From: Escherichia coli
GTDB lineage: Bacteria > Pseudomonadota > Gammaproteobacteria > Enterobacterales > Enterobacteriaceae
Direction: 5' to 3' (one strand)
Length of the DNA stretch: 64,000 nt
NCBI RefSeq assembly: GCF_050920415.1
Contig: NZ_CP169309.1
Position 1 is the stretch's first letter. Every line of letters begins with the position of its first letter. This document shows positions 9,133-10,159 of the stretch, in pieces. The translations under genes and the position numbers were made by a program. The notes under the pieces are model-generated. The model had not been told where the DNA came from. It searched no databases and saw only the letters and a program-made list of their open reading frames with translations.

Positions 9133-9278
9133 TAACTGTTCATATAACCATTTCTTTATATTGCTGAATTTACAAAAAGTCGCAGTTATTAGTCGTATTT
9201 ATTCCGAATTGAAATCATCCGTCATATAAAATAAAAAAGAATAACAATAATAATCTTCTACCCTTATCAGTACCTTTA

Positions 9279-9306
9279 CTGCTGTGCTCCAACACAGCAG
9301 TTTTTT
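9279..9306 (+). terminator. Rho-independent terminator candidate
   Basis: Hairpin ctgctgtg-ctccaa-cacagcag followed by T6. Confidence 0.55.
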
Positions 9307-9930
9307 GATTATGCTCACATATTTTTCATCCCCACCGCACTGCACATTATAACTGTTGCTTTTCAATTCAGGCTTTGTGCAGGTATGTCTGAATCTCCTC
9401 CGGGAGAGGTCTTCATCGTTATCAGCCCCAAAACACACCAGCGACACTGACAAAGAGCCTGCGAGTGCAGTTGCCCCGTTTTCGTTTTATGATGTATTCA
9501 CCCAGTCAAATAATGAGCAAATTCAATCCATGTCAGACGGCAGAGAATCATAAAATTTAACCATCGTGCTTACATAAACAATCCGATAAAGACTTAACAT
9601 ACTTAAAATCGCATATTGCATAAGAATAAATAATAAGTCATCAAAAAACATCGGGCAAAACTACCGCAACTCCAGTTAAAAAGACAATATATTAATCCAG
9701 CGACCTCATTTATTATTCAGAAATGCTTAATAATAAGATATTTCCTGTTATTCCTTTATGGAGATCGGGTAACTGCTCCATGCCAGTCTTGTTGAATGGC
9801 TCAAAAAATAAGAGAATAATTCATAACATATATTGTAATTCAGGCTCGGTTATTTCGAATTGAATACTTGCATTAAAATCTGATAAAAAATTCGTCATAA
9901 CAACAACATTCTCTTCTGCATGTGCCATAA

Positions 9931-9959
9931 CCTGCCGTAACAACCCGGCAGGTTTTTTT
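9931..9959 (+). terminator. Rho-independent terminator candidate
   Basis: Hairpin cctgccg-taacaacc-cggcagg followed by T7. Confidence 0.55.
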
Positions 9960-10159
9960 ATTGAATAAATTTCCGGTTTCTTCCACCATCGCACCGGCCA
10001 GGCGACTATGAGGGGACAACGCCGCGCTCCGTTAACGCAGTAAACCCCGGTGTGTATCGTTTTTGATTATCCCCGCACACTCGCGCAGAGGAGTCTCCCC
10101 GTAGGGCTGCGGTCTCTGTTAATGCGGAAATACGGCGACGATACAACGCATTGAAAAAA

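What the first reader, a model, noticed from the sequence alone, without database searches (positions are those of the whole stretch)
9140..10159. ~1-kb AT-rich, ORF-poor block between Rz and cos
Where lambda carries bor, this stretch has no ATG-initiated ORF of credible length. It contains two plus-strand hairpin/T-run terminators (9279-9306, 9931-9959) and a repeated motif (ttccgaattgaaatca..cgtcatat near 9205 and tttcgaattgaatact..cgtcataa near 9852). It could be a decayed gene, a small-RNA locus or a regulatory/H-NS-bound spacer.
Basis: seen in the sequence. Interest (0 to 1): 0.45.

Follow-up and report, generated by a model that had tools for sequence, protein, structure and literature searches.

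The report
Two tandem HnrS-family prophage small-RNA genes
The "empty" AT-rich stretch after the phage lysis genes carries two small-RNA genes related to HnrS, a recently described prophage RNA that shuts off the bacterial gene-silencing helper Hha; one copy is a divergent relative I could not find described.

Summary
Positions 9140-9960 are the lowest-GC DNA in the window, with no credible ORF, two plus-strand terminators and a real repeat.

The repeat and the terminators are the two ends of two paralogous ~110-bp units. Each has a conserved TTATTyCGAATTGAA promoter box, a 63-66 nt RNA and a hairpin followed by a U-run.

- **Unit A (RNA ~9241-9306)** is 90% identical to HnrS (EcOnc10/11/12 of E. 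coli O157 Sakai). HnrS is a 66-nt Hfq-bound sRNA that represses hha. I confirmed the Sakai identity by sequence. Unit A keeps the hha seed exactly but has lost the 15-nt match to mazF.
- **Unit B (RNA ~9896-9959)** is a divergent paralogue, 65-69% identical. It has its own invariant 20-nt seed that still contains CUUCU. It occurs in 42 of 5,426 E. coli genomes, and I found no description of it.
- **The spacer between them** is rare, non-coding and unexplained.
- **The GC-rich last 175 bp (9976-10150)** is a separate element, better conserved than Rz. It has moderate covariation support for an RNA structure on the late strand.

No decayed gene was found. Verdict: a small-RNA locus and a new member of a just-described family. 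Expression here is inferred, not shown.

The parts
8920..9132 (+). ylcI/ynfO-family (DUF3950) gene. It lies outside the flagged interval and forms a conserved module with unit A.
   Evidence: 70-aa ATG ORF. NCBIfam NF041551 YlcI_YnfO_N scores 36.5 bits against a cut-off of 30. PGAP annotates it as a YlcI/YnfO family protein in the 99.8%-identical GB089 locus. The same gene-then-sRNA order is seen in Sakai Sp9, Sp10 and Sp12.
9199..9240 (+). Promoter of unit A. Conserved box TTATTCCGAATTGAA at 9199-9213; inferred -35 TTGAAA at 9209-9214; 17-bp spacer; inferred -10 TAAAAA at 9232-9237.
   Evidence: The box is repeated at 9850-9864 (D7) and present in HnrS of Sakai and BP-4795. The hexamer assignment is an inference, anchored on the published 66-nt HnrS transcript, which puts +1 six nt after the same TAAAAA in Sakai.
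9241..9306 (+). hnrS-A, a predicted 63-66 nt sRNA. The 5' end is A-rich (AUAACAAUAAUAAU). Seed AAUAAUCUUCUACCC at 9249-9263. Terminator hairpin at 9278-9301 plus U6 to 9306.
   Evidence: 61 of 68 aligned positions are identical to the HnrS RNA, and 86.6% over 115 bp including the promoter. The covariance model scores 76.1 bits (this was a training sequence). The hha-pairing seed is identical to HnrS, with a predicted duplex at hha -9..+5 of -12.1 kcal/mol. The terminator is found by the scan.
9307..9775 (.). AT-rich spacer, non-coding, origin unknown. Positions 9307-9400 are ~90% conserved with the ST866-type relative; the rest is poorly conserved with frame-breaking indels.
   Evidence: Found in only 23 of 5,426 E. 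coli genomes and in no record of the phage collection. No family hits and no Rfam hit. No ORF is shared with the ST866 type. No similarity to the ylcI region or the rest of the window.
9776..9895 (+). Upstream region and promoter that travel with unit B. Box TTATTTCGAATTGAA at 9850-9864; inferred -35 TTGAAT at 9860-9865; 18-bp spacer; TG at 9881-9882; inferred -10 TAAAAA at 9884-9889.
   Evidence: In porcine ETEC prophages with a different packaging module, identity to the window starts at ~9776. Between B and B' the box is 14/16 identical and the spacer 10/18 but of constant length, and TGA-TAAwAA is kept. The hexamers are inferred.
9896..9959 (+). hnrS-B, a predicted ~64-nt sRNA and divergent paralogue. 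5' end CAUAACAACAACA. Seed UUCUCUUCUGCAUGUGCCAU at 9909-9928. Terminator at 9929-9954 plus U7 to 9959.
   Evidence: 65-69% identical to A and HnrS, with the same order of parts. The seed is 20/20 identical between the window type and the ST866 type although the flanks are 55-66% identical. The stem changes relative to A are compensatory: U-A to C-G and A-U to C-G. Terminator found by the scan. Model score 75.4 bits (training sequence). Present in 42 of 5,426 genomes.
9976..10150 (-). Conserved GC-rich element at the end of the lysis module. It is a candidate structured RNA on the late transcript. Its invariant end (GTTTCTTCCACCATCGCACCGG on the plus strand) marks the recombination junction with the variable moron slot.
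   Evidence: It is far more conserved than the adjacent Rz coding sequence. It occurs in 1,851 of 5,426 E. coli genomes and 398 of 50,697 phage records, including phage 21, ES18 and 933W-like phages. The only ORF family that matches (phrog_6954) has a frame broken in many versions. Consensus folding energy has z = -6.1 on the late strand and -1.8 on the other strand. Of 42 pairs, 97.1% of cells are paired and 7 pairs show double changes.
10160..10666 (-). Rz spanin gene with embedded Rz1 (10201-10407). This is the context that fixes the direction of late transcription.
   Evidence: ORF list. PGAP calls it 'lysis protein' in the GB089 locus.

Best explanation
The AT-rich block is a moron slot of a lambdoid prophage, lying between the lysis module and cos. 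It carries two self-contained small-RNA genes of the HnrS family, both transcribed against the direction of the late operon.

Each gene is a sigma-70-type promoter with a conserved TTATTyCGAATTGAA box that holds the -35 hexamer, followed by a 17-18 bp spacer and a TAAAAA -10 hexamer. The RNA is 63-66 nt long. It has an A-rich 5' end made of A-R-N triplets, a single-stranded seed containing CUUCU, and a GC-rich hairpin with a U-tail. That is the architecture of an Hfq-dependent sRNA.

- **Unit A** is a close variant of HnrS and carries the identical seed. It most likely pairs with the Shine-Dalgarno region (AGAAG) of hha mRNA, blocks its translation, and so weakens Hha-assisted H-NS silencing of horizontally acquired genes.
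- **Unit B** is an older paralogue with a different, strictly conserved 20-nt seed. It probably acts in the same way on hha and/or other mRNAs.

**Shown here:** homology, gene anatomy, seed conservation and distribution.

**Shown by others, for HnrS only:** transcription, Hfq binding and hha repression with compensatory mutations.

**Inferred:** expression and 5' ends of A and B, and the targets of B.

The spacer between the genes is non-coding DNA of unknown origin. The GC-rich 175 bp next to Rz is a separate conserved element of the late strand.
For: **1. The Sakai unit is HnrS.**
- The published description gives a 66-nt RNA with an intrinsic terminator, perfectly complementary to the last 15 nt of mazF, pairing with the hha RBS AGAAG, and present as three identical copies in Sp9, Sp10 and Sp12.
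- The unit 200 bp downstream of Rz in Sakai contains CTACCCAATCAGTAC, the reverse complement of the last 15 nt of mazF. It measures 66 nt from AUAAC to U7.
- Exact copies lie in Sp10(-), Sp9(-) and Sp12(+). Their strands match EcOnc11, EcOnc12 and EcOnc10. Their coordinates differ from the 2014 peaks by a constant +126 to +131 nt.

**2. Unit A is a close variant.** It is 61/68 identical to the HnrS RNA, has an identical 15-nt hha seed, and sits in the same ylcI-then-sRNA module.

**3. Unit B is a paralogue.** It shares the promoter box (14/15), the AUAACAA 5' end, CUUCU, a homologous terminator with compensatory stem changes, and the same downstream flank.

**4. The conservation pattern between B and B' is that of an sRNA gene.**

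| Segment | Identity |
|---|---|
| Seed | 20/20 |
| -35 box | 14/16 |
| Promoter spacer | 10/18, length constant |
| Terminator loop | variable |
| Upstream region | 66% |

**5. No coding alternative holds.** There are no family hits, frames are broken among relatives, and the minus-strand ORF that PGAP calls in three ETEC genomes changes frame with the T-run length and is broken in B'.

**6. The family is not yet curated.** Neither unit matches any Rfam 15 family.
Against: - There are no transcription data for this strain or for any A- or B-type locus.
- The inferred -10 hexamer TAAAAA lacks the usual final T, and the generic promoter scan did not report either promoter.
- In unit A the distance between the -10 hexamer and the HnrS start is 3 nt shorter than in Sakai, so its 5' end is uncertain.
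- Predicted pairing with hha is not statistically distinctive. HnrS and A give -12.1 kcal/mol and B gives -13.5. Between 7 and 11% of dinucleotide shuffles do as well, and B' gives only -11.6, matched by 35% of shuffles.
- Unit A has lost the mazF complementarity, which was the most abundant HnrS interaction in vivo.
- The covariance-model scores for A and B are by construction, because both were training sequences.
- One sister prophage carries an IS66 inside unit A, so A is not always maintained.
Confidence: 0.8

Rival explanations
1. The block is a decayed protein-coding moron, such as a bor-like or other accessory gene. The hairpins would be leftovers or simply the terminators of neighbouring genes.
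For: Lambda, phage 21 and 933W-like phages carry bor after Rz. One stop-to-stop piece (10009-10158, minus) hits phrog_6954 'Rz-like spanin' at E = 7e-15. PGAP calls a 55-aa hypothetical protein over unit B in three ETEC genomes.
Against: The phrog hit lies in the GC-rich conserved element, not in the AT-rich block. Its frame is interrupted by stops or frameshifts in many of the 53 distinct versions, and it has no conserved start. The ORF over unit B switches frame with a 1-nt T-run polymorphism and is broken into pieces of 35 aa or less in B'. Of the 25 stop-to-stop pieces of at least 28 aa, the ten longest were scanned against PHROGs and nine of them against NCBIfam; no other piece matched. 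There is no tblastn match to YlcI. Indels against the ST866 type are not multiples of three.
Confidence: 0.05
2. The hairpins only insulate transcription: 9278-9306 ends the ylcI mRNA and 9929-9959 stops antisense read-through into Rz. On this view there is no independent sRNA, and the repeated box is a protein-binding site or a recombination scar.
For: The first terminator lies 146 bp after the ylcI stop codon on the same strand. The generic promoter scan finds no strong promoter in front of either hairpin.
Against: In Sakai the homologous unit yields a discrete 66-nt primary transcript with its own start site, by dRNA-seq, Term-seq and northern blot. Seed segments are more conserved than their flanks in both lineages, which a bare terminator does not explain. 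Unit B travels as a 185-bp module without ylcI in porcine ETEC prophages.
Confidence: 0.08
3. The AT-rich DNA, especially the 470-bp spacer, is mainly a nucleoid-protein (H-NS/Hha) binding platform or regulatory region controlling unit B or late-gene read-through. The sRNA genes would be incidental passengers.
For: This is the lowest-GC DNA of the window. The spacer has no coding or RNA signature. A 95-bp stretch next to terminator A (9307-9400) and a block at ~9710-9745 are conserved between the two spacer lineages.
Against: Nothing here tests protein binding. The spacer is absent from more than 95% of HnrS-carrying prophages, which have a single unit in a 360-bp gap, so it is not needed for the sRNA or for the phage.
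Confidence: 0.15
4. A type I toxin-antitoxin or small-protein locus: a short hydrophobic ORF (for example 9523-9651 minus, 42 aa) controlled by an antisense RNA.
For: A 42-aa ATG ORF with a hydrophobic stretch and a promoter-like site upstream at 9658-9630 on the minus strand.
Against: The start codon and frame are not conserved in the ST866-type spacer. There is no family hit. No overlapping antisense RNA gene or terminator is found on either strand.
Confidence: 0.03

Closest known systems
HnrS (EcOnc10/11/12) of E. coli O157:H7 Sakai prophages Sp12, Sp10 and Sp9 (Poudyal et al., bioRxiv 10.1101/2025.11.27.690950; first seen as Hfq-CRAC peaks in Tree et al. 2014, PMC4104026)
   Same: Same place and orientation: downstream of the Rz-proximal conserved element and antisense to the late genes. 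For unit A, also the same position behind a ylcI-family gene. Same promoter box, same length class, same A-rich 5' end, and same terminator type. Unit A has the identical hha seed AAUAAUCUUCUACCC. Unit B keeps the CUUCU core.
   Different: Unit A differs at 7 of 68 aligned positions. It has lost the perfect 15-nt complement to the end of mazF and has a 3-nt shorter distance from the -10 hexamer to the RNA start. Unit B is only 65-69% identical, with a different seed context (UUCUCUUCUGCAUGUGCCAU) and a different stem sequence. Two family members sit in tandem in one prophage, whereas the preprint reports one copy per prophage. Unit B also occurs alone in porcine ETEC and edema-disease strains, whereas HnrS is reported almost only in LEE-positive strains. 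I did not test LEE status.
AgvB and AsxR anti-sRNAs of EHEC prophages (Tree et al. 2014; Rfam RF02702, RF02703)
   Same: Short, Hfq-binding, prophage-encoded sRNAs convergent with the late operon in a moron slot, with A-R-N triplets in a variable 5' region. The 5' end of unit B (CAUAACAACAACA) resembles the GcvB-target consensus CACAACA that AgvB mimics.
   Different: They use a different slot, downstream of pR' and the moron CDS rather than after Rz. They are 51-60 nt long with a shared 42-nt 3' region that is absent here. There is no Rfam match in 8000-11500 even at E <= 1. Predicted B-GcvB pairing (-22.4 kcal/mol) is not better than composition-matched shuffles, 28% of which do as well.
Lambda bor and other late-region morons
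   Same: Accessory DNA inserted between the lysis genes and cos, transcribed against the late operon from its own promoter and ended by its own terminator.
   Different: The cargo here is RNA, not protein. The slot is also different: bor lies between Rz and the conserved 175-bp element, whereas this block lies between that element and cos.

Membership tests
HnrS sRNA family | Gene lies in a lambdoid prophage between the lysis cassette and the packaging genes, on the strand opposite the late operon. | tested here: met
   In the window, Rz, terS and terL are on the minus strand and both units are on the plus strand. Sakai Sp9, Sp10 and Sp12 have the same layout.
HnrS sRNA family | Nucleotide homology to the 66-nt HnrS RNA and its promoter. 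| tested here: met
   Unit A is 61/68 identical over the RNA and 86.6% over 115 bp. Unit B is 48/70 identical, with collinear matches in the promoter box, 5' end, CUUCU, terminator and flank. This makes B a paralogue, not an allele.
HnrS sRNA family | Transcript of ~66 nt ending at an intrinsic terminator. | tested here: inconclusive
   Hairpins with U-runs are present at 9278-9306 and 9929-9959. Predicted lengths are 63-66 nt and ~64 nt if transcription starts 6-7 nt after the inferred -10 hexamer. The real 5' and 3' ends cannot be determined with these tools.
HnrS sRNA family | Seed that pairs with the hha ribosome-binding site (AGAAG). | tested here: met
   Met for unit A only: its seed is identical to HnrS and gives the same predicted duplex at hha -9..+5 (-12.1 kcal/mol). 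For unit B the result is inconclusive. CUUCU is kept and a duplex is predicted over -13..+5 (-13.5 kcal/mol), but 8% of shuffles do as well, and B' gives only -11.6.
HnrS sRNA family | Perfect complementarity to the last 15 nt of mazF. | tested here: not met
   CTACCCAATCAGTAC is present in the Sakai unit and absent from A (CTACCCTTATCAGTAC) and from B. The preprint found no regulatory consequence of this pairing, so it may not be a defining function.
HnrS sRNA family | Hfq binding, expression in lysogens, and repression of Hha. | not testable with these tools
   Shown only for the Sakai allele.
HnrS sRNA family | Restriction to LEE-positive (EHEC/EPEC) strains. | not tested
   Hosts of A+B are bovine, food and human isolates. 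Hosts of B alone are porcine ETEC and O139/O141 strains. Their LEE status was not checked.
AgvB/AsxR anti-sRNAs | Match to RF02702 or RF02703 (shared 42-nt 3' region) and location in the pR' moron slot. | tested here: not met
   No Rfam match at E <= 1 in 8000-11500 and none at gathering score in the whole window. The location is after Rz, not after pR'.
phrog_6954 'Rz-like spanin' (81-aa ORF over the conserved element) | A conserved open reading frame encoding the protein. | tested here: not met
   There is a profile hit at E = 7e-15 for 10009-10158 on the minus strand. However, the frame ends early, shifts or lacks a start in many of the 53 distinct versions. Conservation is at the nucleotide level and exceeds that of the Rz coding sequence.

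The most novel reading that the evidence does not exclude
Two readings are not excluded.

**(a) Unit B is a functionally distinct HnrS paralogue.** Its invariant seed would direct it to targets other than, or in addition to, hha. HnrS-type counter-silencing RNAs would then form a diversifying family that also serves strains outside the LEE-positive group, such as the porcine ETEC and edema-disease strains. Tandem copies would give one prophage two regulatory specificities.

**(b) The 175-bp element at 9976-10150 is an undescribed structured RNA of the late transcript.** It would mark the boundary between the lysis and packaging modules in roughly a third of E. coli genomes, in Stx phages, phage 21 and Salmonella phage ES18.
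Probability: 0.3. Interest if true: 0.6.

Novelty: new member of a known kind. Interest (0 to 1): 0.45.

Why it matters
HnrS was described only in a late-2025 preprint, as a single, multicopy sequence that lets EHEC and EPEC prophages lift Hha/H-NS silencing.

This locus shows that the family is broader than that:

- a seed-identical variant that has dropped the puzzling mazF complementarity;
- a divergent paralogue with its own conserved seed;
- a tandem arrangement in one prophage;
- carriage of the paralogue alone in porcine ETEC prophages.

That gives natural 'mutants' for asking which HnrS interactions matter, hha or mazF. It also suggests that copy-number surveys based on the Sakai sequence undercount the family.

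Separately, annotation pipelines leave this interval empty or fill it with spurious ORFs. Examples are the PGAP hypothetical protein over unit B and the 'Rz-like spanin' family over the conserved element.

Tried and rejected
- **Rfam.** A permissive scan of 8000-11500 and a gathering-score scan of the whole window found nothing in the interval.
- **AgvB/AsxR.** This was my first guess, from the C/A-rich 5' end. I rejected it after reading Tree et al. 2014: the slot and the 3' region are different.
- **svsR.** This lambdoid prophage sRNA lies at the 3' end of cI and is irrelevant here.
- **Pas sRNAs.** They sit in a different neighbourhood, near Q and the holin.
- **Decayed gene.** The ten longest of the 25 stop-to-stop pieces were scanned against PHROGs and nine of them against NCBIfam, and YlcI was compared by tblastn. 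Nothing matched in the AT-rich part.
- **Duplication of the ylcI region as the origin of the spacer.** No similarity was found.
- **Other contexts for the spacer.** A conserved 18-mer occurs only in the same locus type, plus two chance hits.
- **More paralogues sharing the promoter box.** A pattern scan of IMG/VR (T variant of the box only) returned only B and B' loci plus three chance hits. The covariance model found only HnrS-type copies in 94 related loci and no third copy in the window.
- **Statistical support for target pairing.** Pairing with hha and with GcvB is not distinguishable from composition-matched shuffles, even for the validated HnrS-hha pair.
- **Small ORFs or a toxin in the spacer.** None is conserved.
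- **Thermodynamic stability of the conserved element.** Single-sequence folding is not exceptional (z = 0.19). Only the comparative signal supports a structure.
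Full report
**Layout**

The prophage late genes run on the minus strand of the window:

| Feature | Coordinates |
|---|---|
| Large terminase | 6133-8118 |
| Nu1-like small terminase | 8033-8542 |
| Rz / Rz1 | 10160-10666 / 10201-10407 |
| ant-like gene | 10781-11347 |
| Lysozyme | 11618-12151 |

- The lambda-type cohesive-end sequence (AGGTCGCCGCCC on the plus strand) lies at about 8709-8720.
- Between cos and the flagged block there is a 70-aa plus-strand gene at 8920-9132. It belongs to the YlcI/YnfO (DUF3950) family, scoring 36.5 bits on NCBIfam NF041551 against a cut-off of 30.
- The flagged interval is therefore the gap between ylcI and Rz.
- NCBI's pipeline annotates nothing in this gap in any of the 19 E. 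coli genomes that carry the whole 1,020 bp at 98.8-99.8% identity.

**Checking the observation**

- **Composition.** GC is 0.354 for 9140-9960, against 0.50 for the window. This neighbourhood is the lowest-GC DNA among 630 sliding windows. The last 200 bp is different, at GC 0.533.
- **ORFs.** The longest ATG ORF is 46 aa. Composition-matched shuffles give 66 +/- 19 aa, so the lack of ORFs is expected for such AT-rich DNA.
- **Terminators.** Both plus-strand terminators are found by the scan, at 9278-9301 and 9929-9954, each followed by a T-run.
- **Repeat.** The motif is real and larger than reported. Three collinear matches share a spacing of 651-656 bp: the TTATTyCGAATTGAA box, ATAACAAyAAyA, and the hairpin end with its T-run. 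They define two paralogous ~110-bp units.

**What the units are**

Alignment with related prophages shows that phage BP-4795 and many Stx phages have a single such unit in a 360-bp gap between a ylcI-like gene and Rz.

O157 Sakai has the same unit. The supplementary table of Tree et al. 2014 lists three abundant Hfq-bound peaks, EcOnc10, 11 and 12, in Sp12, Sp10 and Sp9, roughly 5 kb downstream of the AgvB-type sRNAs.

A 2025 preprint from the same laboratory renames them HnrS. It describes:

- a 66-nt sRNA with an intrinsic terminator, present as three identical copies;
- perfect complementarity to the last 15 nt of mazF;
- repression of hha by pairing with its ribosome-binding site AGAAG, validated by compensatory mutations.

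I tested these descriptors on the sequence:

- The Sakai unit contains the reverse complement of the last 15 nt of K-12 mazF (CTACCCAATCAGTAC).
- It measures exactly 66 nt from AUAAC to the seventh U, and it contains CUUCU.
- Exact 66-nt copies lie in Sp10, Sp9 and Sp12, on the strands given for EcOnc11, 12 and 10.
- Their coordinates are offset from the older coordinates by a constant 126-131 nt.

The unit is therefore HnrS.

**Unit A**

The RNA runs from about 9241-9244 to 9306.

- It is 61/68 identical to HnrS and 86.6% identical over 115 bp including the promoter.
- It keeps the 15-nt segment AAUAAUCUUCUACCC unchanged and gives the same predicted duplex with hha -9..+5.
- It has lost the mazF match (CCCUUAUCAG in place of CCCAAUCAG).
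- HnrS-like sequence is present in 567 of 5,426 complete E. coli genomes. The A allele itself is in 19.

**Unit B**

The RNA runs from about 9896 to 9959.

- It is 65-69% identical to A and HnrS, but has the same order of parts.
- Its hairpin is homologous to that of A, with compensatory changes (U-A to C-G and A-U to C-G).
- It occurs in 42 of 5,426 genomes: the 19 with the tandem locus, 19 porcine ETEC or O139/O141 strains where it stands alone next to a different packaging module, and 4 with a 78-79% identical B' form.
- Comparing B with B' gives the signature of an sRNA gene:

| Segment | B versus B' |
|---|---|
| Seed UUCUCUUCUGCAUGUGCCAU | 20/20 identical |
| -35 box | 14/16 identical |
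| Promoter spacer | 10/18 identical, constant length, TG kept before the -10 |
| Terminator loop | variable |
| Upstream DNA | 66% identical |

- The preprint does not mention sequence variants or paralogues, and it states one copy per prophage.
- Rfam 15 has no family for either unit.
- A covariance model built from the eight known forms finds no third copy in the window, and only HnrS-type copies in 94 related viral loci.

**How it most likely works**

By homology, each unit is transcribed in the lysogen from its own promoter, against the late operon, into a short Hfq-dependent sRNA.

- **A** should repress hha translation as HnrS does, and so relieve Hha-assisted H-NS silencing.
- **B** keeps the anti-Shine-Dalgarno core. 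It can be drawn pairing with hha from -13 to +5 (-13.5 kcal/mol).
- Neither this nor a possible AgvB-like pairing of its C/A-rich 5' end with GcvB is better than shuffled controls. The same is true of the experimentally validated HnrS-hha pair, so the test has little power.
- The targets of B are therefore open.
- The promoter hexamers and 5' ends of A and B are inferences anchored on the mapped HnrS start.

**The spacer (9307-9850)**

- It occurs in only 23 of 5,426 genomes and in no deposited phage.
- No protein-family hit fell in the spacer.
- It has no Rfam hit.
- It shows no similarity to the ylcI region or to anything else in the window.
- It is found in no other genomic context.
- Against its 77%-identical relative it shows frame-breaking indels and no shared ORF.
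- Its last ~75 bp (9776-9850) travels with unit B.
- I regard it as non-coding DNA of unknown origin. An H-NS-binding or regulatory role cannot be tested here.

**The GC-rich end (9976-10150)**

- This is a separate element. Across 66 distinct versions it is nearly invariant, while the adjacent Rz coding sequence is highly variable.
- Its end (GTTTCTTCCACCATCGCACCGG on the plus strand) is a sharp junction. Beyond it, different phages carry cos directly, a ylcI gene, HnrS, or other DNA.
- It is present in 1,851 of 5,426 E. coli genomes and in 398 phage records, including phage 21, 933W-like Stx phages, mEp460 and Salmonella phages ES18 and SPN3UB.
- Where bor exists, it lies between Rz and this element.
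- The one protein family that matches it (phrog_6954, labelled 'Rz-like spanin') has a frame that is truncated, shifted or startless in many versions. The conservation is therefore not protein-coding.

The evidence for an RNA structure on the late strand is as follows:

- The consensus fold is far better than column-shuffled alignments on the late strand (z = -6.1), but not on the other strand (z = -1.8).
- Most variable paired positions change only to G-U.
- With divergent phages added, 97.1% of cells are paired. Seven of 42 pairs show double changes, a count reached by 6 of 500 shuffles.
- Single-sequence stability is not exceptional, and the structure was derived from the same alignment.

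I rate this as moderate support for a structured RNA. Its function is unknown.

**Verdict**

The finding is real and is best read as a small-RNA locus. It holds a new allele and an apparently undescribed paralogue of a family that entered the literature only months ago, plus an unexplained spacer and a conserved late-strand element. Expression in this strain is inferred, not shown.

Noticed in passing
window 9976-10150 (minus strand); also L147 701-864, L148 86-261, L149 701-880: A 175-bp element at the end of the lysis module is more conserved than Rz itself. It is present in about a third of E. coli genomes and in phages as distant as ES18. It shows moderate covariation support for a late-strand RNA structure, and no annotation or Rfam family covers it.
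   Followed up: partly
L004 (GB089 second prophage) about 689-3360: An IS66-family element (tnpA, tnpB, tnpC) is inserted inside unit A, right after ATAACAATAAT. It splits the sRNA gene, while unit B downstream stays intact.
   Followed up: partly
window 9821-9994 (minus); L002 3047-3214: PGAP calls a 55-aa 'hypothetical protein' (WP_157912270.1) antisense to unit B in three porcine ETEC genomes. Its frame depends on a 1-nt T-run polymorphism and it is broken in B', so it is probably a spurious call. phrog_6954 'Rz-like spanin' looks similarly artefactual.
   Followed up: yes
window 9953-9959 and 9301-9306; L001, L102, L133: The terminator U-runs vary in length between otherwise identical loci: 6 or 7 T after unit A and 7 or 8 T after unit B. 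One B copy has a stem mutation (GGCAG to GGTAG).
   Followed up: no
window 13697-13888 (-), 20672-20847 (-), 32883-33067 (+), 51421-51496 (-), 15296-15540 (-): Rfam gathering-score matches elsewhere in the window: STnc100, sok antitoxin, isrK with C4 antisense RNA, naRNA4, and three tRNAs. The window is rich in known mobile-element RNAs.
   Followed up: no
window 15721-15778 (minus): A weak hit of the HnrS-family model (14.3 bits, E = 1.8): GUAACAACA followed by a GC-rich hairpin and U-run, just upstream of the tRNA cluster on the late strand. It may be a late-leader (tR'-type) terminator rather than a family member.
   Followed up: no
window 10781-11347 (minus); L001 4641-5211: The ant-like antirepressor gene between lysozyme and Rz is intact in the window. 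It is annotated as frameshifted in the 99.8%-identical GB089 prophage.
   Followed up: no
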